A stretch of 64,000 nucleotides of DNA, from contig DASWGV010000085.1 in assembly GCA_036393515.1 (NCBI GenBank), forward strand, positions 14,782-78,781, given 5' to 3'. This DNA is from Gemmatimonadales bacterium. GTDB taxonomy: Bacteria; Gemmatimonadota; Gemmatimonadetes; Gemmatimonadales; GWC2-71-9. The notes beneath the pieces were generated by a model. That model did no database searches. It was not told the DNA's origin and saw nothing but the letters and a program-made list of their open reading frames with translations. A program made the position numbers and the translations under genes. How positions within the stretch are numbered: position 1 is the first letter of the stretch; every line of letters starts with the position of its first letter. Below, piece by piece: positions 1 to 13,265 of this stretch.

Positions 1-795
1 CCGCATGAGCGCCGCGGAGGCGCGCTGCCCCGGATGCGGCCGGACCTGGTGGATCCGCGGATCGAACGGAACCGGCGTGCCGCGCAGCGCCTCCAGACTC
101 ATGGCCGCGGCCCCGTGCGCGCTGCGCCACAGGTTCCGCGCGTCGTACAGCAGCAGCGCCAGCATGGCGGACTGGGCCTGAGTCCCGTTGATGAACGCCA
201 GCCCCTCCTTGGCCTGGAACACCAGGGGCGTGAGGCCGGCCTCGACCAACGCGGCGCCGGCGGGGATCCGGCGTACGGGGTCGGCCGCGCCGCGGGCCAG
301 CTCTACGTCGCCTTCACCCAGCACGGCGCGGGCCACGTGGGACAAGGGCGCAAGGTCGCCGCTGGCGCCCACGCTCCCCTGCTCCGGCACAACCGGATGG
401 ATCCCGGCGTTCAACAGTTGCGCCAGGCGTTCGGCCAGCACCGGCCTCACCCCGGACGTTTCCTTCAGCAGCACGTTGGCGCGGAGCAACATGACCGCCC
501 GCACCACGGGCAGCGGAAGCGGCGGCCCGACGCCCGCGCAATGACTCAGAATGAGATTCCGCTGAAGCTCCAGCAGACGGTCCGCCGGCACCCGCACGCT
601 GGCCAGCTTGCCAAAGCCGGTGTTGACGCCGTACACGGGCGCCGATCCGGCGGCCGCACGCTCCACGGCGGCGCGGGAGCGGGCCGCTCGCTCCGCCGCT
701 TCCGGGGCAACGCGCACCTCCGCCCACTCGCGCGCCACCGAAACCACGTCAGCCACCGTGAGCGAAGCGCCGTCGAGGACTACCGGGGAAGGCAT
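1..795 (-). CDS. hutH: histidine ammonia-lyase, N-terminal 265 codons (3' end beyond window start)
   Basis: Own minus-strand translation from ATG 795..793: MPSPVVLDGASLTVADV...PVYGVNTGFGKLA...EQGSVGASGDLAPLSH. The Ala-Ser-Gly triad is the MIO-forming motif of the HAL/PAL family. The frame is open to position 1, so it is absent from the ORF track. ORF 34..861(+) is its antisense shadow. Confidence 0.9.
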   Translation of the reverse strand, partial: MPSPVVLDGASLTVADVVSVAREWAEVRVAPEAAERAARSRAAVERAAAGSAPVYGVNTGFGKLASVRVPADRLLELQRNLILSHCAGVGPPLPLPVVRAVMLLRANVLLKETSGVRPVLAERLAQLLNAGIHPVVPEQGSVGASGDLAPLSHVARAVLGEGDVELARGAADPVRRIPAGAALVEAGLTPLVFQAKEGLAFINGTQAQSAMLALLLYDARNLWRSAHGAAAMSLEALRGTPVPFDPRIHQVRPHPGQRASAALMR

Positions 796-815
796 GAGGC
801 GGGAATATACGGAGG

Positions 816-924
816 GACGTACGGAGACGTACAAGGCGTACTGGGTGGACGGACGTGGTAGTCCGGGTGGCGCCCCGGATTTGCCCGCCCGTCCTCCGGT
901 ACGCCTTGTACGTCTCCGTACGTC
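816..924. repeat. perfect 26-bp inverted repeat (816-841 / 899-924) around a 57-bp spacer; each arm carries three GTAC cores spaced 10 and 9 bp
   Basis: Left arm gacgtacggagacgtacaaggcgtac. The right arm is its exact reverse complement. The spacer contains a further hairpin, tccggg/cccgga (862-879). It lies between the stop of the lipoprotein gene (938) and the hutH start (795). Confidence 0.85.
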
Positions 925-937
925 TCTGTCCGTCCTG

Positions 938-2104
938 TTACTTCGGCGCTATCACCACGATGTTCTCCGTCACGGGCAATCCGCCATGAATCTTCAGTTC
1001 CGGATTTCCCGGGTCCGTCTGATAGCTCCAATCAACGATCAGGTAGCTGGCGCTCGCGTGGGTCACGCGCAGCGCGCCGAACCGCGCAAAGCCGTCGCCA
1101 CCGGACATCTGGAACACGTACCCGTATCCCGGAACCGCCTGGATGGCGCTGCGCGCGTATCCCGAGACCGGCGCGACGTCAATCGACGTCAGGTCCTCCA
1201 CGGGGTCCGTTCCGTAGAGCGCGACCTCGGTGCCGGTTCGCTCCGGCACCAGGAACAGATCGCCGGTCACGTCCCGATCAACCCAGAAGTCAATGTCGGT
1301 CCGATCCCCGTCCGTCACGATGCCCAGCTCCAGCGGTCCCGCCTGTCCGTCGCCGTCGGCATCCAGGAAAAAGCGGAAGCCGCTCCGGCTCACGTCCGCC
1401 TGATAGGGATACATCAGGACGTTGCGCGCGTCGGGCCGAGGGGTGTCGTACCAATAGGGGGCCCACATGCTCTCCCAGCCCTCGATGGATTCGGCCGACA
1501 CGTCGAAGCAGCGGGAAACGCCGTTGGTCAGCGCACCGACCAGGAACTCAGGCGACACGGTGGTTCCCTCGACCGACCAAGTGGTCCCGCATGCGCCGTC
1601 GTCCAGCGAGTACGAGGTGGAGTACACCCGGTACTGGCGGAACCCGCCCGGCTCATTCAGGAAGGGGTTGTCACTCCAACGCAAATGAATCGCGCGGTTC
1701 AGCGAGGTCCCCAGCAACCATTCGGGCGCCTCCAGGCGCAGCCGTTCGTCAATCAGCACGGTCGCGCTGGGCGCGCTCTCGTCGCCGCCCCGCCGCGCGG
1801 CGGTGACATAGTACTCCAGGTCTGGAATGCCGCTGTCATGGAAGGTGGTCGAGGTGGTCGAGGCCCGCAGGTCGAAGTCGGCGCCGGTATTCGAGCGCGA
1901 ATACACCCGGTAGACCTCGAGGTCGGCGTTCAGCACGTCGTCCCAGAACAGGACCAGCGCGGCCGGCGCCACCGGGTCCCCACTGGGCTCCAGCCGATAG
2001 GTGAGGTTCGTCGGTGCTTCGATCCCCGGACCGGCCATGTCGTCGCACGCGGGCAGCGTGAGCGCCAGGAGTCCGGCCACCGCGAGTCGCGAGCGCGATC
2101 TCAT
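938..2104 (-). CDS. hypothetical secreted lipoprotein, possibly with an FN3-like module
   Basis: ORF 938..2158. The internal ATG at 2104 gives MRSRSRLAVAGLLALTLPAC, a signal peptide plus lipobox. GC3-rich coding frame. No recognisable catalytic motif. Confidence 0.6.
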   Translation of the reverse strand: MRSRSRLAVAGLLALTLPACDDMAGPGIEAPTNLTYRLEPSGDPVAPAALVLFWDDVLNADLEVYRVYSRSNTGADFDLRASTTSTTFHDSGIPDLEYYVTAARRGGDESAPSATVLIDERLRLEAPEWLLGTSLNRAIHLRWSDNPFLNEPGGFRQYRVYSTSYSLDDGACGTTWSVEGTTVSPEFLVGALTNGVSRCFDVSAESIEGWESMWAPYWYDTPRPDARNVLMYPYQADVSRSGFRFFLDADGDGQAGPLELGIVTDGDRTDIDFWVDRDVTGDLFLVPERTGTEVALYGTDPVEDLTSIDVAPVSGYARSAIQAVPGYGYVFQMSGGDGFARFGALRVTHASASYLIVDWSYQTDPGNPELKIHGGLPVTENIVVIAPK

Positions 2105-2145
2105 ACGCCCAGCCTTGGTTGAAGTGTGATGCCGGAGAGCTAGAG

Positions 2146-2162
2146 AAGCAGGACGCATGCCA
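2146..2162 (-). promoter_or_regulatory. sigma-54-like -24/-12 element upstream of the lipoprotein gene
   Basis: The minus strand reads TGGCATGCGTCCTGCTT, versus consensus TGGCACG-N4-TTGCW. GG and GC are at the correct 10-nt spacing. It sits about 42 nt upstream of ATG 2104. Single match, no enhancer-binding protein seen. Confidence 0.25.
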
Positions 2163-2259
2163 AGCGAGGGCGTTGACTAACTCATTGCCTATCAGCGGTT
2201 TACCAGCCATGCAGGCGGCGGCTATGTCCGCGCCGGAGGACAGCGACGAGCGGGCGGGA

Positions 2260-4998
2260 TCAGCGGCGCACGGTGCGCTGGTCGTAGTCGAACTTGATCT
2301 CAGGTTGATCCAGCAGCGTGATATGGAAATTGAAAGCGAAGTTGCCGTTGGGCGCTTTCACAAAGGAGAACGTGCCACGCCAGCGGTGGAGGTCGCGCTC
2401 CAGGCGGAGCATGTGCTGGCCAAACTCTTTGGTGGTGAAGTTGTAGTTGGTGTTCCAGGACAGGGACCAGTTGCGGGTGGGGGAAAACCCTGCCGCCAGG
2501 CCCAGCGTGCGGTTGGCCGATGGTCCCGCCACTCCGGGCTGGGCGCCGGGCATCATCGTCGCGGCGCGGGCGCGCTGGTCGTCGTACGTGATGGACAGCT
2601 CCAGGCCTCGGCCTCGCGGCGCCATGCCGGTCACGTCCTCCGTAGCGCGATAGGAGGCCAGCGCACCGGTGACCGTGCTCAGGGGCGGGGACACTCCGGC
2701 GGGCGGCGTCTCCGGTGGTGCCTCGGGCGGCGGAGCGCGGGATGGTTCGGGCGCAGGTCCGCCACCGATCCAGGCCACGAGGCGCGCGAACGTCGAGGCC
2801 GAAATCCCGAACCGCGTGGAGATGGAGGACAGGAACGGGTCGAAGCGCGCGGTGTCGGACCCCACGGCGCCGGCAAACAGATCGTGGGAAGTGGAGATGC
2901 TGAAGCCCGGCAAGAGGTCGCTGGTGAAGGAATTGCTCAATTGCCCCGTGGTCCATCCGGTGCGGCCCGCTTCCTTGGCCTGCTCAAAGTCGTACCGCAC
3001 CGCCGAGGTTTGGAGGCTGAGGAGTTTGATCTTCCGGGCATTCCGGTCATCCGTCGTGTCGCCCTGAGGAGATCGGAGCTTGGCCTCGATGGTCTGGGAC
3101 AGCCCCACGGAAATGGCGTGCTGCGCCAGGCTTTGGCGGTTGGTCCCGGCGCGCGTGGGGTCGAGCGCGCGGGCGTACGACTCCGGAACCGTCGCCTTGG
3201 GGGCGAACTGCCAGCTCACACTGGGGGAGACGGCGTGTCGGATCCGCGACAAGGGTCCGAATCCCGGGAAGAATCCGAACACCGTGGGCGAAACGCTGGC
3301 GCCAAAGGACAGCCGCTTGGACTGCGAGACGAACGCGCCGTTGGTATAGCGGTTCCGGATCAGGAAGCTCCCGCCAGTGACGTTCTGGATCCCCACGCTG
3401 GGCGAGAGACGCCAGGTGGATTGGAACAGGATGGGCAGCCCGATGCCGGTGGTCCAGTCCACGCCGGTGTTGAAGTCCTGGCCGTAATAGCGGGTAACGG
3501 TGTCGGCCGGATTCCCGGGGTCAGGCAGTCGCACCACACTCCGCCGATTGCTCCGATCGTCCAGGATCTGAAATCCATTGTCCCAATTCCACCGGCCGAC
3601 CCGTAGGGGCGTCCCGATGCGCACGCTGGTGCTGCGGAGGTTCAAGAATAGGCTGTCGGTCTGCGGCACGCCATTCAGGGGCGGGAGCACCAGCGTACCC
3701 GATCGCTGGTGGAGCGTCTGGTTGCTGCTCAACGAGACGGAGGGTGTCCAGGTGACGCTGGGCAACAGGTTGACGGCGCGCGGGGTGAGGCTGAAGCTGG
3801 GCAGTGTCTGGGTGACCACGCCGTTGGAGAGGTCCTGCCGGCGCGTGCCACCCAACGAGACGGTACCCCAGCCCATCTGTTTCTGGAAATTGGCATTGCT
3901 GGCCAGGCTGGCGGTGGCCAGCCGCGGGTCCACCGAGTTGCGCTCCAGCACTCGGGCGCTGGTGGCGTAGTTGATGCTGGCGTTCAGCCGCGTCCGCTGG
4001 TCAAAGCTCTGGTTATGGTTGAAGGTCAACTGGAGCGATCGCGACCCGGCCGACTCGTAGATTCTGGACACCGCCAACGATCCGTCCACAAAGCGGTCCA
4101 GCCACCGGTAATTCAACTGCCCGTTGAGCTGCACCAGCGTACCGGACCACCAATCCAGACTCGCCCGCATGTCCAGGTAGTCGTTCAGCGCCACGTAGTA
4201 GCCCACGTTATTCAGGTGCCGCTGGTAGCCCCGGTTGGGCCGGACCAAGTCGTTCAGGCCAAACCGCGGCACCAGCAACCCGGATCGGCGGCCCTGCCGC
4301 ATGTCCTGGAAAATGAACGGGAGCCAGAGGACCGGCACATCCCGCACGTACAGCACGGCGGGCCGGGCCACCAGCAGGTTGTTGGTGACCCACTTGATCC
4401 GGCTCGACGCGAAATGCCAATGTGGGACCCGCATGTCGCAGCTGGTGATGTGACTCCCCCCGGCGTACAGCCGGGTGGAGGCGGAATCCACCGCCAGGGC
4501 ACCCCGAAGAAACCAGTCCACTCCCGATTGCTTGAACGTGGTGAGGGCGTCCTCCACGATTCCGCGATGCTCGCAGGTGTTGTAGCCCATTTCTTCGCCG
4601 ACCAGCACCGTGCTTTGGTCGAACAGGGTGGGACGCCCGCGGGCCCGCAGGCGGCAATCCGCCTGGAAGAACTGCACGGTGTCCGCCTCCAACGTGCTGC
4701 CCTCGCGCTCCACCAGCGCCGTGCCCGTGACGTCGATGCGGCGCGTCGCCGCCTCCAGCGACAGGCTGTCACCGGCGTAGCGCGTCACCCGAAAGCCTTC
4801 CCGCTGCATCAACTCTCGGAGCAAGGAATCAGCGGCGGGGAAACTCCGGCTGGGCGCGGTGGGTAGCCCCAGACCGCGAGCGGCCGTGGTATCCAGGGAC
4901 CGGCGGGTGACCGCGCTGTCCGGGGACAGAGAGTCCTGCCGCTGGGGTCGAGGGGTTTGCTGCTGAACCGAGCTGGGCGGCGGAGGAGGGGGCTGCTG
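2260..4998 (-). other. lptD: LptD/OstA-like outer-membrane beta-barrel portion
   Basis: OstA-like N-terminal region (RVTRYAGDSLSLEAATRRIDVTGTALVEREGSTLEADTV) and an LptD C-terminal-type region with the RRSGLLVPRFG motif. Ends with aromatic-rich beta strands. Confidence 0.7.
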
Positions 4999-5778
4999 CG
5001 CGCGCGCCGGTGATCCTGCGCCGGCCAGGAGCGCGACCAGGGCCGTACTCGCCGCCGCCGCGGCGGATGCCTTGCGGGAGCGCCACACCACCCGCGCCAC
5101 CAGGATGCCGGCCTCATAGAGCACGATCATGGGCCCCAGCATCATAGTCATGGAAAACACGTCGGGCGGAGTGAGCAGGGCCGCCACCACCGCGCCGATT
5201 ACCAAGGCGATGGGGCGTTGCCGGGCGAAGACCACCGGGTCCACCAGCCCGAACGCGGCCAGCAGCACGATGACCAGCGGCAGCTCAAAGACGATCCCGA
5301 ACGCCAGAATGAACAGGCTGGCAAACGAGAAGTACTCGTTCGCCGTGATGATGAACTCCAGGTCCTCCCGCTGAAAGCTGAACAGAATACGCAGCGCGGC
5401 CGGGAGCACCCACAGGTAGGCCATCAGCGCGCCGGTGAGAAACAAGAGCAGTCCCGCCGCCAGCGTGGGGATCACGAAGCGTCGTTCCCGCTCGTACATG
5501 GCGGGGGACAGGAACTTCCACCCCTGCCAGACGACCACCGGCGACGCGATCACGCCACCCACCAGCACCGCCAGCTTGAGCGTGAGCAGGAACGCGTCCG
5601 TGGGGCGGGTCACGAATAGTTTCCCCGCCGGCAGCATCGGCTCGATGGGCCGTTTCAGGAGCCCGAGCACGTCGTAGCGCTGCACCAGGAAGAACCCGGC
5701 CACGGTGGCCAGGACCAGTGCCACCAGGCTCCATAAGATGCGCCACCGCAGCTCCTCGAGGTGATCGAGGAATGGCAT
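2260..5778 (-). CDS. tatC: single stop-less ORF: TatC (Sec-independent translocase) fused in frame to an LptD/OstA-like outer-membrane protein
   Basis: ORF 2260..5910. The ATG at 5778 starts the conserved TatC N-terminus, MPFLDHLEELRWRI, followed by six hydrophobic segments. After ...ILVARVVWRSRK comes ASAAAAASTALVALLAGAGSPARA|QQ, which is signal-peptide-like. Then come an OstA-like region and LptD hallmarks (HITSCD..PHWHF..LWLPFIFQDMRQGRRSGLLVPRFG). There is no stop codon between the parts. Confidence 0.8.
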   Translation of the reverse strand: MPFLDHLEELRWRILWSLVALVLATVAGFFLVQRYDVLGLLKRPIEPMLPAGKLFVTRPTDAFLLTLKLAVLVGGVIASPVVVWQGWKFLSPAMYERERRFVIPTLAAGLLLFLTGALMAYLWVLPAALRILFSFQREDLEFIITANEYFSFASLFILAFGIVFELPLVIVLLAAFGLVDPVVFARQRPIALVIGAVVAALLTPPDVFSMTMMLGPMIVLYEAGILVARVVWRSRKASAAAAASTALVALLAGAGSPARAQQPPPPPPSSVQQQTPRPQRQDSLSPDSAVTRRSLDTTAARGLGLPTAPSRSFPAADSLLRELMQREGFRVTRYAGDSLSLEAATRRIDVTGTALVEREGSTLEADTVQFFQADCRLRARGRPTLFDQSTVLVGEEMGYNTCEHRGIVEDALTTFKQSGVDWFLRGALAVDSASTRLYAGGSHITSCDMRVPHWHFASSRIKWVTNNLLVARPAVLYVRDVPVLWLPFIFQDMRQGRRSGLLVPRFGLNDLVRPNRGYQRHLNNVGYYVALNDYLDMRASLDWWSGTLVQLNGQLNYRWLDRFVDGSLAVSRIYESAGSRSLQLTFNHNQSFDQRTRLNASINYATSARVLERNSVDPRLATASLASNANFQKQMGWGTVSLGGTRRQDLSNGVVTQTLPSFSLTPRAVNLLPSVTWTPSVSLSSNQTLHQRSGTLVLPPLNGVPQTDSLFLNLRSTSVRIGTPLRVGRWNWDNGFQILDDRSNRRSVVRLPDPGNPADTVTRYYGQDFNTGVDWTTGIGLPILFQSTWRLSPSVGIQNVTGGSFLIRNRYTNGAFVSQSKRLSFGASVSPTVFGFFPGFGPLSRIRHAVSPSVSWQFAPKATVPESYARALDPTRAGTNRQSLAQHAISVGLSQTIEAKLRSPQGDTTDDRNARKIKLLSLQTSAVRYDFEQAKEAGRTGWTTGQLSNSFTSDLLPGFSISTSHDLFAGAVGSDTARFDPFLSSISTRFGISASTFARLVAWIGGGPAPEPSRAPPPEAPPETPPAGVSPPLSTVTGALASYRATEDVTGMAPRGRGLELSITYDDQRARAATMMPGAQPGVAGPSANRTLGLAAGFSPTRNWSLSWNTNYNFTTKEFGQHMLRLERDLHRWRGTFSFVKAPNGNFAFNFHITLLDQPEIKFDYDQRTVRR
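4999..5088 (-). other. internal Sec-type signal-peptide-like segment, with possible internal GTG starts at 5091 and 5088
   Basis: Residues 231-260: VWRSRK (positive n-region), ASAAAAASTALVALLAGAG (h-region), SPARA (AxA cleavage motif), then QQPPPPPP. Confidence 0.6.
5074..5778 (-). other. tatC: TatC domain portion of the fused ORF (about residues 1-235)
   Basis: Typical TatC length and motifs: LEELR, FLSPAMYERERR, LLTPPDVFSM. Confidence 0.85.
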
Positions 5779-5836
5779 CTCGGCACGGGGTGACGACGGG
5801 GACGAACTCACGGGGCGGGCGGGTGGGCCCGGGGGG

Positions 5837-6616
5837 TTATTGCTCGCGCGCTTCCAGCCTGGTACGGGCGAGCTGGGCTTCTTCGGTGCGCGGGTAGCCG
5901 GCCACCACACGCTGGTAATACACGCGGGCTCCCCGCGTGTCCCCGCGCGCTTCCGCCAGCAGGCCGAGTTTGTACAGGGCGGTGGGCGCCCGGGGAGATG
6001 CCGGGTGCTCCTTCGCTACCTGCTCGTAGGCGGCGGCTGCGGAATCACCATCCGTGGCGGCCCACGTCTCGCCCATCTGGAACCACGCGTCAGCAACACG
6101 GTCATGTTGCGGGAAATCCAGGAGCAACTTCTGGAGCGCCAGCCGCGCCGTCTGGGGACTGCCCGAGCGGAGCTGCCGCAGGGCCAGGTCGTAGAGTTGT
6201 TCCGGACCCGGTCCCGCCGGACGCGCACCGCTGTCGGCCGGTGTCCCGGGAGGGGCCGCGGCGACCCCGCGGGCGCGGGACTCCAATTGGCCGCGTAACT
6301 CCGACAGCCGCTGCTGGCTCTGGCCGGTCAGCTCCTGAATCTGGACCAGTTGGCGTTGGACATCGGTGAAGTCGCTCCGCAGCTGGCCCTCGAACAGGGC
6401 CAGCCGGCGTTGCTGCGCCGCCAACGAGTCGGCGATGAGCTGCTGCGTGGCGGCGATCTCGTCCAACAGGCGCCGAAGCACGGCAGCCCGCGCCGAGTCG
6501 GCGCGGGCTGCCTCCCGCCGGAACGCGATCAACTGGGTCTCGACTCGCCGCACGTCGCTCTTCAGGGCACACCCGGTCAAGGTGGCCGTGGCGGCGAGCG
6601 CGAAGAGCAGTCTCAC
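5837..6616 (-). CDS. cpoB: Tol-Pal associated TPR/coiled-coil lipoprotein CpoB (YbgF)
   Basis: MRLLFALAATATLTGC lipobox, Gln-rich coiled coil, C-terminal TPR. Positioned directly after pal. Confidence 0.75.
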   Translation of the reverse strand: MRLLFALAATATLTGCALKSDVRRVETQLIAFRREAARADSARAAVLRRLLDEIAATQQLIADSLAAQQRRLALFEGQLRSDFTDVQRQLVQIQELTGQSQQRLSELRGQLESRARGVAAAPPGTPADSGARPAGPGPEQLYDLALRQLRSGSPQTARLALQKLLLDFPQHDRVADAWFQMGETWAATDGDSAAAAYEQVAKEHPASPRAPTALYKLGLLAEARGDTRGARVYYQRVVAGYPRTEEAQLARTRLEAREQ

Positions 6617-7254
6617 ATGCCCGACGGCCTGCGCAGGGCGTCACCGCCGGCCGTGACCCCGAACTCGTCACGGCGGTTCATGGCCCACGCCTCTTCGGTG
6701 CTGCCCATTTGCATGGGCTGCTCCTCACCCATGGACCGGGTGGTAATCCGATCGGCGGCGACGCCCCGGGTCACCAGGTACTGCTTGGCCGCCAGCGCGC
6801 GCCGGTTGCCCAGCGCCAGGTTGTATTCGTCGGAGCCACGTTCGTCGCAGTGGCCCACAACCTCAATGCGCAGCATGGGATTGGCCTGAAGAATGGCGAG
6901 CTTCTGGTCCAGCACCGCCGCGTCTCCCGACCGAATGTCCGCGCGGTCAAAATCGAAGTTGATGCGCGTCATCAGCAGGTTGCGCACCTCCTCCGTGCTG
7001 CGACGCATCATGGCCAGCGAGTCGTCCCGCATGCGCCGGATCCGCTCTTCCTCCGCGGCGCGCACCCGGTCAAGGCTGTCCCGGATCCGCTGGGCATTAG
7101 CGAGGGAGTCGGCCCGCCGGCGGGCCGACTCCGCCGCCGCAATCGAGTCCGCGTTAGGCTGGGGCGCCACTTGCGGCTGGCCGCCGCCACATGCCACCGC
7201 CGTCAGGATGACAACGGCACCGAGCGCGATGGGAAGCATGCTGCGCATGATCAC
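6613..7254 (-). CDS. pal: peptidoglycan-associated lipoprotein Pal (OmpA-like C-terminal domain)
   Basis: Lipobox LTAVAC. OmpA-like motif: FDFDRADIR...VVGHCDERGSDEYNLALGNRRA. Confidence 0.9.
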   Translation of the reverse strand: MIMRSMLPIALGAVVILTAVACGGGQPQVAPQPNADSIAAAESARRRADSLANAQRIRDSLDRVRAAEEERIRRMRDDSLAMMRRSTEEVRNLLMTRINFDFDRADIRSGDAAVLDQKLAILQANPMLRIEVVGHCDERGSDEYNLALGNRRALAAKQYLVTRGVAADRITTRSMGEEQPMQMGSTEEAWAMNRRDEFGVTAGGDALRRPSGM

Positions 7255-7261
7255 TCCACGG

Positions 7262-8662
7262 TCAGGGGTTGGAACCTTCCATGATCCGCGGAGACCAGGC
7301 CGGAAGCCGGGCCTCCCCGAGTCTGGTCAACTGCCGCACCCGCCCAGTGTCGAGATCGATGATCCAGGCCTGCCGGGATCCCGTGCGGGTGGAAACGAAC
7401 CCCAGGTGCCGTCCGTCCGGCGCCCAGGTCGGATCCTCGTTGCGTCCGGCACTCGTGAGCTGCCGCACCCGTCGGGACGCGACGTCCATCACGAAGACTT
7501 GCGGCGTGCCCGCCACATCGCGATGGAACGCGAGATTGAGACCGTCCGGCGACCACTCAGGCGCGTAAGAGCTGCCGGTTACGCCGTAATCGAACGGCGC
7601 AAACAACTCCTGTCCAGTCCCGTCGGACGACATCACGTAGATCTGCGGCGATCCCGCGCGGGTCGACGCAAAGGCGATCCGACGACCATCCGGACTGTAT
7701 GTCGGGGACAGGTTATCCGAAAAACGGCCGGCCGTCAAGCGTTGTAAGCAACACCGTTCCACCAGGTTGTAGGTGTACAGGTGGGAGCCCTCTTCGTTCG
7801 CAAAGGTGAAGGCCAACAGCCGGGTGTCGGGCGAAAAAGCCGGCGTGTAATTGAGGCCGCTGGTGGTGGGACCCACCAGCTCCCGGCGTCCGGATGCGAT
7901 GTCCTGCAGGTAGAGCCGCCCATTCCCGCCCACGAACTGCATGTACACCGCGCGCCGTCCGTCCAGTGACCAGGCGGGCGACATCGCCGTGTCCGCGGCC
8001 GGCGAGACCGGCAGCGCATCGGCACCGTCCGCGTCAATGCGGTATACCCGCTTGCCCTGGATCAGCAGGAGTCGCGTCGCCGCGATGCCCGGCGTCCCGG
8101 CGGCGGCGCGGACCACTTCGTCGCTCAGCCGATGGATGGCCAGGCGGGTCTCTGGATGACGCAGGTCGCCAGACCAAAGGGCCAGCGTCCGGCGACTCAG
8201 CCGCCCGCGAACATCGTACACGGTCACGACCGCGGGCGTGTCCACCGTAGCGCGAAGGTGCACCGCGTAATCGGCGCCCAGCGCCTCGTACAAACCGTAG
8301 TTCACGAAGGCCGCCGCCCCACCACTCACCGCGGCGGGAGCCGTCGGCTGAGGCGGGCCCAGCGCCGGCGGCGCCAGGGCCACCATCAGACTCTCGCCGC
8401 CGGGCAGCGTGATCATCTCGAACCGGTCCGAGTAGTCCAGGTCCCGCTGGAGGATGGTCCGCACCGAGTCGAGGAACGTGGTGCGCTCGACGCCCAGCAC
8501 CAGCATCCCAGGGCGCAGGCCGGGCGTGTAGGTGATGCCGATCCGCACGCCCGGCTCCACCTGCCGCGTGGTGTCCTGGCCCGCCACCGGAGCGGCGACG
8601 CTGGCCAGCACGACCAGCACGCCGAGGCCCCACCGCCACGCCTTGCCCCGCGAGCCGGTCAC
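7262..8662 (-). CDS. tolB: Tol-Pal system beta-propeller protein TolB
   Basis: Signal peptide, then repeated SPDG/WD-like propeller blades (FSPDTR, YSPDGRR, WSPDGLN, WAPDGRH). Confidence 0.9.
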   Translation of the reverse strand: MTGSRGKAWRWGLGVLVVLASVAAPVAGQDTTRQVEPGVRIGITYTPGLRPGMLVLGVERTTFLDSVRTILQRDLDYSDRFEMITLPGGESLMVALAPPALGPPQPTAPAAVSGGAAAFVNYGLYEALGADYAVHLRATVDTPAVVTVYDVRGRLSRRTLALWSGDLRHPETRLAIHRLSDEVVRAAAGTPGIAATRLLLIQGKRVYRIDADGADALPVSPAADTAMSPAWSLDGRRAVYMQFVGGNGRLYLQDIASGRRELVGPTTSGLNYTPAFSPDTRLLAFTFANEEGSHLYTYNLVERCCLQRLTAGRFSDNLSPTYSPDGRRIAFASTRAGSPQIYVMSSDGTGQELFAPFDYGVTGSSYAPEWSPDGLNLAFHRDVAGTPQVFVMDVASRRVRQLTSAGRNEDPTWAPDGRHLGFVSTRTGSRQAWIIDLDTGRVRQLTRLGEARLPAWSPRIMEGSNP

Positions 8663-9366
8663 CGGATGGTCCGTGGATTGAAAAAGAAGTTCACCGGCAG
8701 GAGGTCCGCTTCGAATCCCTCAGGCAGGGGCCCAAACGCGCGCGCGTTCCCGGCCGCCTCCACGGCGCCCTGCGCTTCCAGGTCGAACGCGAAGCTCCCC
8801 GAGCGCCGGGTGAACTGCACATTGCTGATGCTGCCGTCACGATGGATAAAGAACAGGACCTCCGCCTGGAGCGGGGCCTCATCGACCGGGCGGTGCCACC
8901 GCCGGTACACCTCGGCCACAATGTTCCGCAGGTACTCAGGATATCGGAACGCCACGCCGGGCACGCTGACGGTCGCGACGTCCGTGCCGGTGGACGGCGT
9001 CACGCCGGGAGCGGGCTCTTCCTTGGGCGTGGTGCGCGGCGCCGGCTCACGTTCCACGTCCGGCTGGGCTTCTCTGGGTGGGGCTTCCTTGGCCACCGAG
9101 GTCCGGCGGGGTGGCGTGGGTCGAGGCGCCGGGGGAGGCGTCCGTTCCGCGGGCCGCTCCAGAACTTCCGGCGCCCGCCGCGCGGCCGGTTCCGCCCGCG
9201 GGGCCGCGACCAGCTGCACCCGGTACACCGGCGGCACCGAACGCGCCGTGCCCGGCCGTGAGAACATCACGCCGGCCACGGCCACGTGCAGCATCAACGT
9301 CGCGGCGAACGCAAGTCCGGCCCCTTCCTGCCGGCGGCGTCGCGCCCGCGGCCGCGCCGCTCTCAC
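8659..9366 (-). CDS. tolA: TolA/TonB-family energy transducer (N-terminal anchor, Pro-rich linker, TonB_C-like domain)
   Basis: Membrane anchor LAFAATLMLHVAVAGVMF, a Pro/Glu-rich spacer and a C-terminal domain (YPEYLRNIVAEVYRRW...ISNVQF). Sits between tolR and tolB. Confidence 0.75.
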   Translation of the reverse strand: MRAARPRARRRRQEGAGLAFAATLMLHVAVAGVMFSRPGTARSVPPVYRVQLVAAPRAEPAARRAPEVLERPAERTPPPAPRPTPPRRTSVAKEAPPREAQPDVEREPAPRTTPKEEPAPGVTPSTGTDVATVSVPGVAFRYPEYLRNIVAEVYRRWHRPVDEAPLQAEVLFFIHRDGSISNVQFTRRSGSFAFDLEAQGAVEAAGNARAFGPLPEGFEADLLPVNFFFNPRTIR

Positions 9367-9791
9367 CGCTCAACCTCCTCCGACTCCGCCACCAGCCCCA
9401 CGTCGTCCACGCCCGCGCTCCGCATCACCGCCAGCACCTGCACCACGACGCCGTACTGCACTCGGAAGTCCGCCCGCAGGTACACGCCGCGCGGCCTCCG
9501 CGATGCCACCAGCGCGCCGAACGCCGCGCGAAATTCCTCGTACCGGAGCGGTGTCTGGTCCACGAAAATGCGGCCCTGGCGGTCAATGGACACCACCAGT
9601 CCCTCCTTGGACTGCAACGGCCTGGCTACTGCCTGCGGGAGCTGCACGTCCACACCGCCCTGCATGATGGGGGCGGTGATCATGAAAATGATCAGCAGCA
9701 CAAACGCGACGTCCACCAGCGACGTCACATTGATGTCGGCGGACAACGGCAGCTCGCCGTGGCCGCGCAGTCCTTCCCCACCCATGCTCAC
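9363..9791 (-). CDS. tolR: ExbD/TolR family protein
   Basis: INVTSLVDVAFVLLIIFMITAP motif typical of ExbD/TolR. 4-nt overlaps with both neighbours. Confidence 0.9.
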   Translation of the reverse strand: MSMGGEGLRGHGELPLSADINVTSLVDVAFVLLIIFMITAPIMQGGVDVQLPQAVARPLQSKEGLVVSIDRQGRIFVDQTPLRYEEFRAAFGALVASRRPRGVYLRADFRVQYGVVVQVLAVMRSAGVDDVGLVAESEEVER

Positions 9792-10498
9792 ACCCTTCCC
9801 TCACGCGCCATGGTCCCGATGATCTCGTAGGCAAACCCTTCCAGCTCCCCGGCAAACAACCCCAGTCGCGACACAAAGAGGTTGTACCCCATGACCGACG
9901 GGATGGCGACGACCAGCCCGAACACGGTGGTGACTAGGGCCGTCGCGACGCCCGGGGCGATCGCCGAGATGTTGCCCGAGCCACCCGTGGCAATCCCGAT
10001 GAACGAGTCCATGACGCCGAGCACGGTGCCGAGCAGGCCCAGCAAGGGACTCACCGAGCCGAAGGTCGCCAACCACGGTATGAACCGCGCCATCTGGTCC
10101 CGTTCCGCCGATACTTCCTTCCCCAGCACCATGCGCAGCGCTTCCAGCTGCGTCACGGTGAGCGGCGGCTGCGTGCCCTGGGTTTCCCGCAACACCCCGG
10201 GGCGCAGCTCCGAGAAGAAGTTCACGCCCTCTCGCAGCAGCCGGCCGTAGGGCGACGGCGGGAGCTTCATGACGGCGTGGTAGGCGTCCTCCAGGCGGGT
10301 GGTGCGCTCCAGCTCGGCAAAAAACCGGTTGCCCTCGCGCCGCACCCGCCGGAATTGCCACCACTTGAGCACAATGAGGAACCAGCTGATCAGCGAGAAG
10401 GCAGCCAGCACCACCAGCACGAGTTTGGTCGCCACGTTGGAGGTGGTCACCAGCTCCCACGGCGTGGTGGGAACCGCCCGGCCCACTTGCAGCATCAT
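9788..10498 (-). CDS. tolQ: MotA/TolQ/ExbB proton-channel protein
   Basis: ORF 9788..10597. The ATG at 10498 forms an ATGA overlap with the upstream stop. Three TM segments and the GLLGTVLGVM...ATALVTTVFGL motif. Confidence 0.9.
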   Translation of the reverse strand: MMLQVGRAVPTTPWELVTTSNVATKLVLVVLAAFSLISWFLIVLKWWQFRRVRREGNRFFAELERTTRLEDAYHAVMKLPPSPYGRLLREGVNFFSELRPGVLRETQGTQPPLTVTQLEALRMVLGKEVSAERDQMARFIPWLATFGSVSPLLGLLGTVLGVMDSFIGIATGGSGNISAIAPGVATALVTTVFGLVVAIPSVMGYNLFVSRLGLFAGELEGFAYEIIGTMAREGRV

Positions 10499-11442
10499 GC
10501 CACGGCCTCCTTGATCCACGCGTAGGTGCGCTGGAGACCGTCCTCGACCGTCACCTCCGGCCGCCAGCCAAGCTCTCGCTCCGCCTTGGTCACACACAGA
10601 GCGGACCGCTGCAACTCGCCCGCCCGCGGGGCGGCGTGCCGCACGTCGCCGGAGGCCCCGGCCGCGCCGATCATCACGGCGGCCAGCCGGTTCACGCTGG
10701 TCTCGACGCCGGTGCCAATATTGATCGCGACGTCATCCAGCGCGCGCGCGGCCGGCGCGGCCCATCGCGTCGCCGCCAGGTTGGCCTTCGCCACATCGCC
10801 TACGTAGACGTAGTCACGGGTCTGCTCACCGTCTCCGTACACCGTGAGGGGCTGGGCGTGCCGCAGTCGGCTCCCGAAAATCGCCACCACCCCCGCCTCG
10901 CCGTGCGGGTTCTGGCGAGGTCCATAGACATTGGAGTATCGGAGCGAGACCACTTCGAGCGGGTAGAGCTGAGCGTAGGCCATCAGGTAGAACTCCGACG
11001 CCAGCTTGCTCACCCCGTAAGGCGACACCGGGAGCTTGGGCGCCAGCTCGCTGTTCGGCAGCTGCGATCCCTCTCCGTACACCACCCCCCCGGAGGACGC
11101 GAACACCACGCGCCGCACGCCACCGCGCCGCGCGCCCTCCAACAGATTCAGCAGCCCCAGAATGTTGGTGCGCGCGTCGAACAGGGGATCATCCACCGAC
11201 ACCCGTACATCCATCTGAGCCGCATGGTGGTTCAGTACGGCAAACCCGCCTTGCTCCAGCAGCGCGCGTGCCTCCGGGGACCCGATATCGGCCTCCACCA
11301 GCCCCGCGCCGGCCGGCACGTTCTCCCTCCGTCCGCTGGAGAGATTGTCCAGGGCCACGACATCGTAGCCGTCCCGAAGGTAGGCCTCGGCCACGTGCGA
11401 ACCGATGAACCCCGCTCCACCCGTAACCAGCACCTTCGGCAT
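10495..11442 (-). CDS. NAD-dependent sugar epimerase/dehydratase (GalE-like)
   Basis: MPKVLVTGGAGFIGSH Rossmann motif, YxxxK (YGVSKLASE). GAGGAG Shine-Dalgarno about 10 nt upstream of ATG 11442. Confidence 0.8.
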   Translation of the reverse strand: MPKVLVTGGAGFIGSHVAEAYLRDGYDVVALDNLSSGRRENVPAGAGLVEADIGSPEARALLEQGGFAVLNHHAAQMDVRVSVDDPLFDARTNILGLLNLLEGARRGGVRRVVFASSGGVVYGEGSQLPNSELAPKLPVSPYGVSKLASEFYLMAYAQLYPLEVVSLRYSNVYGPRQNPHGEAGVVAIFGSRLRHAQPLTVYGDGEQTRDYVYVGDVAKANLAATRWAAPAARALDDVAINIGTGVETSVNRLAAVMIGAAGASGDVRHAAPRAGELQRSALCVTKAERELGWRPEVTVEDGLQRTYAWIKEAVA

Positions 11443-11602
11443 CAGCCTACGCTCCTCACCGGTGTGAGTGAATCGGAGGGTGGGGTCTCGCATGCGGAGC
11501 CACCTGCCCGCGCCACCTGGTTCGCGGCACGGGCGGAAGCGGACAGAAGACCGCCACCAAATGGGGGGAGGGGCCGGGAGATTGCGGCGCCCGGCCGCGC
11601 CG

Positions 11603-12805
11603 TCAGGCCGGCATCTTTCGAATCAGCCGCACCGGCTGGCCCGCCCGCACGCCGGGCCGGTAGATCTGCGTGATCAGCGCGGACGCCGACCGCTGCCGGA
11701 CATGCACGACCTCCAGCACCGCCCCACGCTCGGGTGGGGCACCGGTGGCCGGATCACCTTCGCGAATCAGCTCAAACACATCCCCAGGAACCACGCCACT
11801 CTCCCGACCCAGATCAATGAACACCACGTCCAGCTGGTTGGGCACATAGTGGAAGTCCCGGATCTCTACCACGGTTCCTGTCGCCCCGTCGGTCACCGGG
11901 ACCGCAGCCGCCGCGGGCGGAGGCGTGAAGCGCTCCAGCGGGAGTGCGACCTGCCCGTCTACCACCCGGCCGAATTGGGCCACCACCACTGCCAACACAT
12001 GTCCCTCAGTCACGTGCGTCACACGCACCACGCCACCCGGGACGACGACCCGCCCCCAGCCCACGACTTCACGCCCCAGGTGGGCTACCAACAGGGAATC
12101 GCCGACCTGATACATGGCGCCGGACGGCGGCGTGACCTCGATTTCTTCGTAGATCGTGGCCGAGGAGGTGGACGCACTACGAACCGCCGCCGACTGGCGT
12201 GCGTCCCCCAGGACTTGGGCCCAGGGCAAAGCTTCGCCCTCAGTCAGAAACCCGGCGGAATAGAACTCACCCCAGCGTACTGTGCGGTGAAGGGCGCTTC
12301 GCCCGCCGACTACGGTGGGCGGACCGCCGCGCGCAGCCCTCCCGAACACCGTCGGGGAACCCGCGTCCGCCGGTGGCGGCGGAGGAGCTGCGGCCTCCAC
12401 CATGGGCGCCTCCACTTGCGGTTGCGTGGTGTCCATGGGGGGGAGTTGCCCCGGCATTTGCTGTGGCTGCTGCTGCACCGGCGGTTGGTCCGGTGTGGGC
12501 TCCATGGGGGCGGGCTCTGCCGCCACCGGCATCATCTCTCCCAGAGCCAGCTGCTCGCCGGGGAAGATCCAATGCGGGTCTTCCACCACGAGCGTGTTCA
12601 GCCGGTAGATCTCGGGCCACATGAGCGGATCACCGAGATACAGCTGGGCGAGGCCCCAGAGGGTCTCGCCCTGCTGCACCACATGCACACGACCAGACTG
12701 AACGGTCTGCAGGGGCTCCTGGGCACCCACTGGGCCGGCCGACAACGCCAACCCCAGGCCCAGAACCCATGCTACCCTAGAACGGGAGATCGTCGTCCTC
12801 CTCAT
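11603..12805 (-). CDS. LysM domain-containing secreted protein
   Basis: Signal peptide (RSRVAWVLGLGLALSAGPVGAQE), LysM motif (HVVQQGETLWGLAQLYLGDPLMWPEIYRLN), a Pro/Gln-rich linker and two beta-rich C-terminal modules. Start uncertain: ATG 12805 or GTG 12775. Confidence 0.7.
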   Translation of the reverse strand: MRRTTISRSRVAWVLGLGLALSAGPVGAQEPLQTVQSGRVHVVQQGETLWGLAQLYLGDPLMWPEIYRLNTLVVEDPHWIFPGEQLALGEMMPVAAEPAPMEPTPDQPPVQQQPQQMPGQLPPMDTTQPQVEAPMVEAAAPPPPPADAGSPTVFGRAARGGPPTVVGGRSALHRTVRWGEFYSAGFLTEGEALPWAQVLGDARQSAAVRSASTSSATIYEEIEVTPPSGAMYQVGDSLLVAHLGREVVGWGRVVVPGGVVRVTHVTEGHVLAVVVAQFGRVVDGQVALPLERFTPPPAAAAVPVTDGATGTVVEIRDFHYVPNQLDVVFIDLGRESGVVPGDVFELIREGDPATGAPPERGAVLEVVHVRQRSASALITQIYRPGVRAGQPVRLIRKMPA

Positions 12806-13265
12806 CGAGTGCCTCCGGAAAGTCCTCGTAGGACTCCGACTTGCCGTCCGCAGCCGCGGGCTTGGCGGCTCGGGACGTGGCCACCGCCATTTCACCCTCG
12901 CCGCCGGACGATCCGCGGGGCGACAGCATGATCATCTCTCTCGCGTTGATCTCCGTGGTGTACCGGGTCTTGCCTTCCCTGTCATCCCACGTCCGGTACT
13001 CAATACGACCCTCCACGTAGACTCGGTCGCCCTTTTTCAGAAACTTCTCGGCGATGTCAGCCAGTTGCGCCCCAGCGCCCCGCGTGTTCCACAGGACCAC
13101 GCGGTGCCACTCGGTCTTTTCCTGCCGTTCTCCGGCCTGATTGTTCCACTGCCGGCTCGTGGCGATCGAGATCGTCGCGACCCGGCCCCCGTTGGTGGTG
13201 CTCCGGACCTCAGGGTCCGCCCCCAAGTTCCCGATCAGCATCACCTTATTAAGACTGCGTGCCAA
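12777..13265 (-). CDS. ssb: single-stranded DNA-binding protein
   Basis: ARSLNKVMLIGNLGADPEVR...TEWHRVVLW OB fold and an acidic tail ending DDDLPF. TTG start preceded by GGAGG. Confidence 0.95.
   Translation of the reverse strand: MARSLNKVMLIGNLGADPEVRSTTNGGRVATISIATSRQWNNQAGERQEKTEWHRVVLWNTRGAGAQLADIAEKFLKKGDRVYVEGRIEYRTWDDREGKTRYTTEINAREMIMLSPRGSSGGEGEMAVATSRAAKPAAADGKSESYEDFPEALDEEDDDLPF

What the first reader, a model, noticed from the sequence alone, without database searches (positions are those of the whole stretch)
2260..5778. TatC fused in frame, without a stop codon, to an LptD/OstA-like outer-membrane barrel via an internal signal peptide
**Seen.** One uninterrupted reading frame encodes a complete six-TM TatC (from ATG 5778). 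A textbook Sec signal peptide follows (RSRK / ASAAAAASTALVALLAGAG / SPARA|QQ, 5088..4999). After it comes an LptD-like protein of roughly 900 aa, with an OstA-like N-domain and the RRSGLLVPRFG barrel motif.

**Established.** The TatC C-terminus is cytoplasmic, and LptD is a periplasm-transiting outer-membrane protein.

**Inference.** Because there is no stop, every ribosome that translates tatC must run on into the LptD-like part. The extra hydrophobic segment would then act as a seventh TM with N-in/C-out topology and a signal-peptidase site, releasing the barrel precursor. GTG codons at 5100, 5091 and 5088 could additionally allow independent initiation. I am not aware of a described inner-membrane translocase/OM-barrel fusion of this kind. 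It would link Tat machinery and LPS-insertase expression 1:1.
Basis: partly seen in the sequence, partly recalled or inferred. Interest (0 to 1): 0.75.

Follow-up and report, generated by a model that had tools for sequence, protein, structure and literature searches.

The report
Conserved TatC–LptD-like fused gene, Gemmatimonadota
In this soil-type bacterium, and in most of its uncultured relatives, an inner-membrane export protein (TatC) and a large outer-membrane barrel (LptD-like) are encoded as one gene joined by an internal signal peptide, which most likely lets the cell cut them apart after synthesis.

Summary
Window 2260-5778 (- strand) is one 1172-codon frame:
- a complete TatC (aa 1-232),
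- a 28-aa signal-peptide-like segment (RSRK / Ala-Leu core / ARA|Q),
- an LptD_2-family protein with the LptD fold.

It is not an assembly artefact. More than 250 distinct protein clusters from Gemmatimonadales and Longimicrobiales MAGs have the same architecture. In 74 species-level genomes with a readable junction, 66 are fused in frame.

Unfused relatives keep the same order, tolQRAB-pal-ybgF-tatC-lptD_2. There tatC and lptD_2 overlap by 1-4 nt (ATGA, GTGA or TGATG), and LptD_2 starts with an ordinary N-terminal signal peptide ending AxA|Q. The fusion is therefore a repeated loss of the stop codon in a translationally coupled gene pair.

The junction diverges in sequence (25% identity) but keeps signal-peptide rules: net positive n-region, -3/-1 small residues, +1 Gln in 116/120. 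Six fused genomes have no possible internal start codon.

Best reading: a polyprotein cleaved by signal peptidase I. Cleavage itself is inferred, not shown. I found no paper describing this fusion; databases label it simply "TatC". I rate it a new variant of a known kind (internal-signal-peptide polyproteins such as FbcH), of moderate interest.

The parts
2260..5778 (-). Single fused ORF tatC::lptD_2, 1172 codons plus stop (stop codon at 2260-2262)
   Evidence: both Pfam domains lie in one frame; full-length fused homologues
5083..5778 (-). TatC moiety, aa 1-232: six TM helices, complete to the natural TatC C-terminus
   Evidence: PF00902 E 1.6e-59. TIGR00945 above its cut-off. Aligns 1-243 to Aquifex TatC 4B4A 1-242. 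Foldseek target-normalised TM-score 0.81-0.83 to TatC structures. E8, E9 and E98 are invariant.
4999..5082 (-). Internal signal-peptide-like segment, aa 233-260: n-region RSRK, Ala/Leu h-region, c-region SPARA. Predicted signal peptidase I site between A260 (4999-5001) and Q261 (4996-4998).
   Evidence: Sequence. Hydropathy peak 1.6, against 2.1-2.8 for the TatC TM helices. Across 120 homologues: -1 = A/G/S in 113 of 116, -3 = A/L/V/G/S/T, +1 = Q in 116 of 120, net charge +1 to +5. Only 25% sequence identity.
4894..4998 (-). Pro/Gln-rich disordered N-terminal linker of the mature LptD-like protein, aa 261-295
   Evidence: pLDDT <50 for aa 250-293; 25% identity; a similar linker is present in unfused orthologues
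4294..4893 (-). Periplasmic beta-jellyroll (OstA/LptD_N-like) domain, about aa 296-495
   Evidence: AF2 strands 332-492. Covered by Foldseek alignments to LptD. NCBIfam LptD partial match aa 306-510. PF03968 recorded for fused homologues P0188 and P0352.
2263..4293 (-). Large outer-membrane beta-barrel, about aa 496-1172 (LptD_2 family)
   Evidence: PF19838 aa 470-932. AF2 beta-strands 521-1169, mostly pLDDT 80-95. Top PDB matches are LptD chains, E 4.5e-25.
5837..10597 (-). Upstream genes of the same operon: tolQ 9788-10597, tolR 9363-9791, tolA-like 8659-9366, tolB 7262-8662, pal 6613-7254, ybgF/cpoB-like TPR 5837-6616
   Evidence: Pfam MotA_ExbB, ExbD, TonB_2, PD40, OmpA, TPR. Same order in unfused and distant fused relatives.
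938..2158 (-). Conserved downstream lipoprotein gene (406 aa, lipobox LTLPAC, no Pfam family)
   Evidence: found downstream on the same strand in 82 of 87 loci

Best explanation
This is a genuine, evolutionarily conserved gene fusion in Gemmatimonadota. Its ancestor was a tatC-lptD_2 gene pair at the 3' end of the tol-pal operon, overlapping by 1-4 nt and so translationally coupled. That pair lost the tatC stop codon.

The ribosome therefore makes one polypeptide. TatC (six TM helices, C-terminus in the cytoplasm) is inserted co-translationally. The basic stretch that follows TM6 doubles as the n-region of what used to be the LptD_2 N-terminal signal peptide. That short, moderately hydrophobic segment enters SecYEG with N-in/C-out orientation, and the roughly 910-aa LptD-like part is translocated.

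Signal peptidase I then cuts after AxA (A260|Q261). This would release a normal periplasmic LptD_2 precursor for BAM-dependent assembly in the outer membrane. TatC would be left carrying about 28 extra C-terminal residues, the retained signal peptide.

Shown: the single frame, both domain identities, conservation of the fusion, conservation of signal-peptide rules, homology of the junction to a real N-terminal signal peptide, and absence of any start codon in some fused genomes.

Inferred: the membrane topology of the extra segment, the cleavage, and the LPS-insertase function of the barrel.

The fusion is probably near-neutral, because it is topologically permitted. It has been gained and lost several times.
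For: - Single frame with both domains.
- More than 250 distinct 90%-identity clusters, 1150-1210 aa, carry PF00902+PF19838 in Gemmatimonadales and Longimicrobiales MAGs.
- 66 of 74 GTDB species loci with a readable junction are fused in frame.
- Junction features are conserved despite 25% identity: -1 A/G/S, -3 small or aliphatic, +1 Gln in 116/120, n-region net +1..+5, uncharged run of median 18 aa. Q261 is invariant in alignment A1.
- Unfused orthologues (P0122, P0127, P0129, P0131, P0162, P0168) start with a classical signal peptide ending AxA|Q at the homologous position.
- Their loci show tolQRAB-pal-ybgF-tatC-lptD_2, with tatC and lptD_2 joined by GTGA, ATGA or TGATG overlaps or separated by 1 nt.
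- Six fused loci have no ATG/GTG/TTG between TM6 and the h-region.
- The h-region is less hydrophobic than the TatC TM helices, as in cleavable signal peptides.
- The AF2 model shows TatC helices, a disordered linker, a jellyroll and a barrel. Foldseek places LptD chains and TatC chains as the top PDB hits.
- A rough NJ tree with parsimony gives a split root state and at least 5 state changes. Fused P0128 shares synteny with unfused P0127.
Against: - No experimental evidence of cleavage. No SignalP/DeepTMHMM run was possible; only rule-based checks were made.
- -3 is Leu in 23/116 homologues, which is tolerated by SPase I but not optimal.
- Many fused genes do contain in-frame GTG codons near the junction, so some internal initiation cannot be excluded for them.
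- AF2 confidence at the junction is low, pLDDT 28-49, so the placement of the extra segment is unknown.
- Whether fused-lineage genomes carry a second tatC or a canonical lptD was not testable here.
Confidence: 0.75

Rival explanations
1. The two parts are made separately even in fused genes. Ribosomes initiate internally at a GTG/TTG/ATG near the end of TatC TM6 and produce an ordinary LptD_2 precursor. The read-through polypeptide is a minor or irrelevant product.
For: The window has in-frame GTGs at 5100, 5091 and 5088, with a GAGG 11-20 nt upstream. Most fused loci have at least one in-frame GTG within 10 codons of the n-region. The ancestral state was a separate start at this spot.
Against: No start codon is conserved in position and SD-like motifs are rare. 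Six of 64 fused loci have no ATG/GTG/TTG at all in the usable interval. With no tatC stop codon, every tatC-translating ribosome must continue into lptD_2 regardless. No promoter-like site lies inside the ORF.
Confidence: 0.1
2. The hydrophobic segment is an uncleaved seventh TM helix. TatC and the barrel remain covalently linked, with the Pro/Gln-rich linker tethering the LptD-like N-domain to the inner membrane.
For: About 70 residues lie between the hydrophobic segment and the first jellyroll strand, roughly 35-45 of them disordered. That could in principle span part of the periplasm. Leu at -3 occurs in 23/116 homologues.
Against: - The AxA|Q pattern is conserved as in cleaved signal peptides and is shared with the N-terminal signal peptides of unfused orthologues.
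- The same linker exists in unfused proteins, so it did not evolve as a tether.
- The h-region is short and weakly hydrophobic.
- Repeated fission and fusion without other change implies the two products work as separate proteins.
- From established knowledge, BAM substrates are delivered as released periplasmic precursors.
Confidence: 0.07
3. The fusion is an assembly or sequencing artefact, or a decaying pseudogene, in this contig.
For: Frameshifts do occur in some MAG loci. L019 and L056 have frameshifts inside tatC. L009, L012, L014 and L049 have them at the junction.
Against: Hundreds of independent assemblies from different projects show the same in-frame junction. TatC residues are strongly conserved, 68% mean identity with invariant E8/E9/E98.
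Confidence: 0.01
4. The C-terminal barrel is not the LPS insertase. It is an LptD-fold paralogue with another outer-membrane role connected to Tol-Pal. This is independent of the fusion mechanism.
For: It fails the canonical LptD equivalog models, 31 and 20 bits against cut-offs of 944 and 683. No conserved barrel cysteines were found, only C375 and C402 in the N-domain. No LptE gene was recognised nearby. The gene sits in the tol-pal operon, not next to surA or lpt genes.
Against: PF19838 is curated as LptD. NCBI names unfused orthologues "putative LPS assembly protein LptD". The best structural matches over more than 900 columns, including the jellyroll, are LptD chains.
Confidence: 0.15

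Closest known systems
Bradyrhizobium japonicum FbcH cytochrome b-c1 polyprotein (Thony-Meyer et al., about 1989-1991; recalled from memory, not retrieved: searches found no open-access copy)
   Same: A polytopic inner-membrane protein with a cytoplasmic C-terminus is fused in frame to a periplasm-exposed protein through an internal signal peptide. The precursor is processed into two mature proteins.
   Different: In FbcH the two parts are subunits of one complex and both stay at the inner membrane. Here the parts belong to unrelated machines (Tat and an LptD-like barrel). The downstream part must leave the inner membrane entirely and be assembled into the outer membrane. Cleavage here is only inferred.
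Unfused tatC-lptD_2 gene pairs of other Gemmatimonadota (P0122/L001, P0129/L082, P0127/L084, P0162/L086; G. aurantiaca TatC, 254 aa)
   Same: Same operon (tolQRAB-pal-ybgF-tatC-lptD_2), orthologous proteins (31-49% identity for the LptD part), and the same signal peptide ending AxA|Q (for G. aurantiaca TatC length).
   Different: tatC ends with a stop after a 20-35-aa hydrophilic tail, and lptD_2 has its own GTG/ATG start overlapping or abutting that stop. In the fused form the tail is lost, and the post-TM6 Arg/Lys cluster serves as the signal-peptide n-region.
Canonical proteobacterial LptD (E. coli, Shigella, Klebsiella; PDB 4Q35, 4RHB, 5IV9, 8H1S)
   Same: N-terminal beta-jellyroll followed by a very large beta-barrel. 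Best structural match, E 4.5e-25, target-normalised TM-score 0.50-0.59.
   Different: About 10% sequence identity. Far below the equivalog cut-offs. About 150 residues longer. No conserved inter-domain cysteines. No recognisable lptE neighbour. Never reported fused to an inner-membrane protein.
Natural TatC fusions and extensions: haloarchaeal TatCt (tandem TatC, 14 TM; from memory) and the 401-aa TatC of Myxococcus and Stigmatella (PDB 9E03)
   Same: They show that TatC tolerates extra transmembrane or C-terminal sequence.
   Different: Those extensions remain part of the translocase. None is a signal peptide followed by an outer-membrane protein.

Membership tests
TatC (PF00902 / TIGR00945) | Profile score above the curated cut-off over the full domain | tested here: met
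   PF00902 201.7 bits against 25.1, profile positions 1-208 of 208. TIGR00945 185.2 bits against 132.7.
TatC (PF00902 / TIGR00945) | Six-TM fold as in solved TatC structures | tested here: met
   AF2 helices aa 3-236, pLDDT about 80-94. Foldseek target-normalised TM-score 0.81-0.83 and rmsd 3.0-3.5 to 9DZZ, 9E01 and 4B4A. Sequence alignment 1-243 to 4B4A 1-242.
TatC (PF00902 / TIGR00945) | Conserved acidic residues of the twin-arginine signal-peptide binding site (E. coli E15 and E103; numbering from memory) | tested here: met
   E9 (HLEELR) and E98 (YERERR) are invariant in 80 fused homologues. They align with the corresponding Glu residues of Aquifex TatC.
TatC (PF00902 / TIGR00945) | A TatA/B partner encoded in the genome | tested here: inconclusive
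   No TatA-like motif in the 64-kb window. TatA_B_E genes lie 4-5 kb downstream in related loci L084 and L088, a position that would fall beyond the window edge.
LptD_2 (PF19838) | Profile score above the gathering cut-off | tested here: met
   145 bits against 22.5, E 3.6e-42, aa 470-932. All homologues carry PF19838.
Canonical LptD (NCBIfam equivalogs NF002997 / NF003358) | Score above the equivalog cut-off | tested here: not met
   31 bits against 944 and 20 bits against 683; partial matches only.
Canonical LptD | Architecture: periplasmic beta-jellyroll plus large C-terminal beta-barrel | tested here: met
   AF2 model. The top 15 PDB hits are all LptD chains aligned over 877-965 columns. 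The exact strand number was not counted.
Canonical LptD | Inter-domain disulfide bonds between the N-domain and the barrel C-terminus (E. coli feature, from memory) | tested here: not met
   Only C375 and C402, both in the N-domain, are near-invariant. No conserved Cys in the barrel.
Canonical LptD | LptE lipoprotein plug partner and LPS insertion activity | not testable with these tools
   No LptE family hit among the neighbours. A conserved unknown lipoprotein gene lies downstream. The whole genome is not available.
Sec-type signal peptide cleaved by signal peptidase I | Tripartite n/h/c structure with small residues at -3 and -1 | tested here: met
   RSRK / 18-aa Ala-Leu core / ARA|Q. Statistics over 120 homologues. 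Rule-based only; no SignalP.
Sec-type signal peptide cleaved by signal peptidase I | Located at the N-terminus of the precursor | tested here: not met
   It starts at residue 233, after six TM helices. It is N-terminal in the unfused orthologues.
Sec-type signal peptide cleaved by signal peptidase I | Actual cleavage | not testable with these tools
   Needs N-terminal proteomics or immunoblots.

The most novel reading that the evidence does not exclude
The fusion is not neutral but selected. One possibility is that riding behind TatC gives the roughly 910-aa aggregation-prone barrel precursor obligatory co-translational delivery to SecYEG (TatC being SRP-targeted), at a fixed 1:1 ratio with TatC. 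Another is that the signal peptide retained on TatC after cleavage acts as a seventh TM helix and alters Tat translocase assembly. Either would be a previously undescribed way of wiring inner-membrane translocase synthesis to outer-membrane biogenesis within the tol-pal operon.
Probability: 0.15. Interest if true: 0.75.

Novelty: new variant of a known kind. Interest (0 to 1): 0.5.

Why it matters
- **Annotation.** Hundreds of public proteins labelled only "TatC" hide the phylum's LptD-like outer-membrane protein. LptD will look absent from many Gemmatimonadota MAGs, and TatC length statistics are distorted.
- **Evolution.** This is a clean natural example of a "topologically permitted" fusion. 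A C-in membrane protein followed by a secreted protein can merge and split repeatedly without changing either product. It documents at least 5 state changes with intermediates (ATGA/GTGA overlaps, in-frame stop, frameshift splits).
- **Cell biology.** If cleavage is confirmed, it is a bacterial polyprotein whose two halves end up in different membranes. It also gives a natural test of whether SPase I processes an internal signal peptide after a six-TM protein, and of whether TatC tolerates a retained signal peptide.
- **Operon linkage.** The phylum-wide linkage tol-pal-tatC-lptD_2 suggests co-regulation of envelope machines.

Tried and rejected
- **Upstream GTG 5910 as start (1216 aa).** Rejected. 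It overlaps the ybgF-like gene, and homologues and the Pfam match begin at MPFLDHLEEL.
- **TatA motif in the six-frame translation of the window.** Nothing found.
- **Promoter and terminator scan of 1800-6200.** No promoter-like site. The two terminator-like hits are within chance expectation.
- **Conserved internal start plus Shine-Dalgarno.** None is positionally conserved. The start-context comparison with operon genes was uninformative, because the ORF listing starts are longest-ORF starts.
- **Literature.** Searches on TatC+LptD+fusion, Gemmatimonadetes+TatC, LptD+Gemmatimonas, and Gemmatimonadota/LptD/TatC/tol-pal found no description of the fusion. The 2013 TatC survey lists only G. aurantiaca TatC, 254 aa, unfused. 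Searches for the FbcH precedent found no open copy.
- **A cultured organism with the fusion.** All named hits are MAGs.
- **Fusion outside Gemmatimonadota.** The distant fused proteins P0191, P0188 and P0128 proved to be Longimicrobiales or to have Gemmatimonadota-type tol-pal synteny. No other phylum was seen, but the listings are capped.
- **Model and tree limits.** The AF2 junction geometry has too low confidence to use. The NJ tree is rough (midpoint-rooted distance tree), so the number of events is a minimum estimate only.

Full report
**Observation.** The ORF listing gives one ORF, 2260..5910 on the minus strand. The raw sequence shows no stop between the TatC part and the downstream part, and it shows the segment VVWR-SRK-ASAAAAASTALVALLAGAGSPARA-QQPPPP at 5088-4999. 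The upstream GTG at 5910 overlaps the preceding gene. ATG 5778 (MPFLDHLEEL…) is the real start, because the Pfam match and all homologues begin there. From that start the protein has 1172 residues.

- Pfam finds a full-length TatC domain (aa 5-216, E 1.6e-59) and LptD_2 (PF19838, aa 470-932, E 3.6e-42).
- NCBIfam confirms the TatC equivalog above its cut-off.
- NCBIfam gives only weak partial hits to the canonical LptD equivalogs: 31 bits against 944.

**Not an artefact; conserved.** A search of 5.8 billion proteins returned at least 120 clusters at 53-100% identity. All cover 100% of the query, all are 1150-1200 aa, and all carry PF00902+PF19838. Where named, they come from Gemmatimonadales or Gemmatimonadota MAGs and are annotated merely as "TatC". 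Two further searches, seeded with distant fused proteins, added about 150 more fused clusters, including Longimicrobiales.

A scan of one genome per GTDB species returned 80 loci, all Gemmatimonadota. My frame analysis of these loci gave the following:

- 6 loci are cut by a contig end, leaving 74 with a readable junction.
- 64 are fused in frame. 2 more (L019, L056) are fused at the junction but have a frameshift elsewhere in tatC. That makes 66 of 74 fused.
- 8 are split.

**What the unfused relatives show.** An exhaustive HMMER search with the LptD-like part alone found both fused proteins (about 1170-1200 aa, match starting near residue 270-310) and unfused ones (900-1040 aa, match starting near residue 20-100). 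The two kinds are interleaved in similarity: unfused P0122 at 49% identity, fused P0123 at 46%.

The unfused proteins begin with an ordinary N-terminal signal peptide that ends AxA|Q, for example MRAGWIAAFALALAATSGVA|QVP. Their genomic contexts are tolQ-tolR-tolA-tolB-pal-ybgF-tatC-lptD_2, the same order as in the window. tatC and lptD_2 overlap as GTGA, ATGA or TGATG, or are separated by one base.

The ancestral condition is therefore a translationally coupled pair, and the fusion is loss of the stop. In fused proteins the hydrophilic TatC tail (…ERRRKRAAAREAAREAAAS*) is gone. The Arg/Lys cluster after TM6 runs directly into the h-region, so it doubles as the n-region of the signal peptide.

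**The junction behaves as a signal peptide.** Statistics over 120 fused homologues:

| Feature | Result |
|---|---|
| Residue at -1 | Ala 93, Gly 15, Ser 5 |
| Residue at -3 | Ala 70, Leu 23, Val 8, plus Gly, Ser or Thr |
| Residue at +1 | Gln in 116 of 120 |
| Net charge of the n-region | +1 to +5 |
| Uncharged run | 13-29 residues, median 18 |

- Q261 is invariant in the 80-sequence alignment A1.
- Sequence identity in this segment is only 25%, against 68% in TatC and 57-66% in the LptD-like domains. Pattern conservation without sequence conservation is what signal peptides typically show.
- In the window the segment's hydropathy peak (1.6) is well below that of the six TatC TM helices (2.1-2.8). 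That fits a cleavable signal peptide better than a permanent anchor.

**Internal initiation.** In-frame GTG codons are frequent near the junction in this high-GC DNA. None is conserved in position, and SD-like motifs are rare. Six fused loci (L013, L024, L051, L069, L071, L079) have no ATG, GTG or TTG at all between the end of TM6 and the h-region. In those genomes the barrel can only be made as part of the polyprotein. No promoter-like site lies within the ORF.

**Identity of the two halves.** The TatC part aligns end to end with Aquifex aeolicus TatC: 1-243 against 1-242. It retains invariant E9 and E98, which by my recollection of the numbering are the equivalents of E. coli E15 and E103.

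An AlphaFold2 model built on 80 homologues has mean pLDDT 77.7. It shows:

- TatC helices at aa 3-236;
- a low-confidence helix at 241-251;
- a disordered stretch at 250-293;
- a beta-sandwich at 332-492;
- a large barrel at 521-1169.

Foldseek against the PDB ranks 15 LptD chains first (E 4.5e-25 to 7e-18, target-normalised TM-score 0.50-0.59, over 877-965 columns). TatC structures follow, with target-normalised TM-score 0.81-0.83. The downstream half is thus LptD-like in fold and a member of Pfam LptD_2. It is not a member of the canonical LptD equivalog. It also lacks conserved barrel cysteines, since only C375 and C402 are near-invariant. NCBI calls the unfused orthologues "putative LPS assembly protein LptD".

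**Evolutionary dynamics.** A rough NJ tree of the barrel region from 87 loci, with parsimony, gives a split root state and at least five changes. The pattern is:

- deep unfused lineages (L082-L086);
- a coherent unfused clade with long TatC tails (L001, L037, L039, L047, L054);
- isolated frameshift-type splits nested among fused genomes: L009, L014 and the pair L012/L049. The pair shares the same arrangement in two independent MAGs, so that split is probably real.

Fused P0128 shares detailed synteny with unfused P0127. Longimicrobiales contain both states. The type strain Gemmatimonas aurantiaca has a 254-aa TatC, which is unfused. Repeated gain and loss implies that the two products function as separate proteins and that the fusion is close to neutral.

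**Mechanism proposed (inferred).** TatC's C-terminus is cytoplasmic (established for TatC). The following signal peptide therefore has the correct N-in orientation to engage SecYEG. The barrel precursor is translocated, and signal peptidase I cuts at A260|Q261. LptD_2 then follows the normal chaperone/BAM route. TatC keeps about 28 extra residues.

The closest precedent is the Bradyrhizobium FbcH cytochrome b-c1 polyprotein, which I cite from memory because no open copy was found. The difference here is that the two products belong to unrelated machines and end up in different membranes.

**Novelty and score.** I found no paper describing a TatC-LptD fusion. The 2013 TatC survey did not encounter it. 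The sequences themselves are in public databases by the hundred, and the mechanism is a variant of a known one. I therefore rate it a new variant of a known kind, with moderate interest (0.5).

The more novel readings are selection for co-translational delivery or fixed stoichiometry, and a functional seventh helix on TatC. Neither is excluded, but the frequent reversions argue against them.

Noticed in passing
window 938-2158 (-): A 406-aa predicted lipoprotein (MRSRSRLAVAGLLALTLPAC…) with no Pfam family lies directly downstream of the fused gene. A homologue lies downstream on the same strand in 82 of 87 related loci, fused and unfused alike. One relative has a faint Fn3_SaeA_3rd hit. It could be a partner of the barrel in an LptE-like role, but this was not examined.
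   Followed up: partly
window 5837-10597 (-): A complete tolQ-tolR-tolA-tolB-pal-ybgF/cpoB cluster precedes tatC::lptD_2, with short or overlapping junctions. The linkage tol-pal-tatC-lptD_2 holds in every related locus examined. In L087 an nrdR gene is inserted between ybgF and the fused gene.
   Followed up: partly
L084 12220-12468; L088 15693-15953: The TatA/B-family gene sits 4-5 kb downstream of lptD_2, after a TPR protein, a polyprenyl synthase and DUF4321. It is followed on the opposite strand in L088 by a SurA-like chaperone gene. The equivalent position in the window would lie beyond its left edge.
   Followed up: no
window 4996-4998 (Q261) and homologues: The first residue of the predicted mature LptD_2 is Gln in 116 of 120 fused proteins and in the unfused orthologues inspected. 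This suggests a conserved N-terminal (pyro)glutamine of unknown significance.
   Followed up: partly
L009, L012, L014, L049 (junction); L019, L056 (inside tatC): These MAG loci carry frameshifts. L012 and L049 share the same junction frameshift, which yields overlapping tatC and lptD_2 ORFs, so that secondary fission is probably real. L056 comes from a large-contig assembly (877,929 bp), and its frameshift may be a sequencing error.
   Followed up: partly
window aa 375 and 402 of the fused protein (about 4573-4656): Two near-invariant cysteines lie in the jellyroll domain (QADCRL, NTCEHRG) and none in the barrel. This may be an intradomain disulfide, unlike the inter-domain disulfides of E. 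coli LptD.
   Followed up: no
window 2119-3606 (+), 3709-4866 (+), 608-2122 (+): Long antisense ORFs of 385-504 aa overlap the real genes. They are typical high-GC artefacts, not genes.
   Followed up: no
window 10495-12895 (-): Upstream of tolQ lie an NAD-dependent epimerase/dehydratase gene and a LysM-domain protein gene. The same epimerase-tolQ adjacency is seen in L087 and L088.
   Followed up: no
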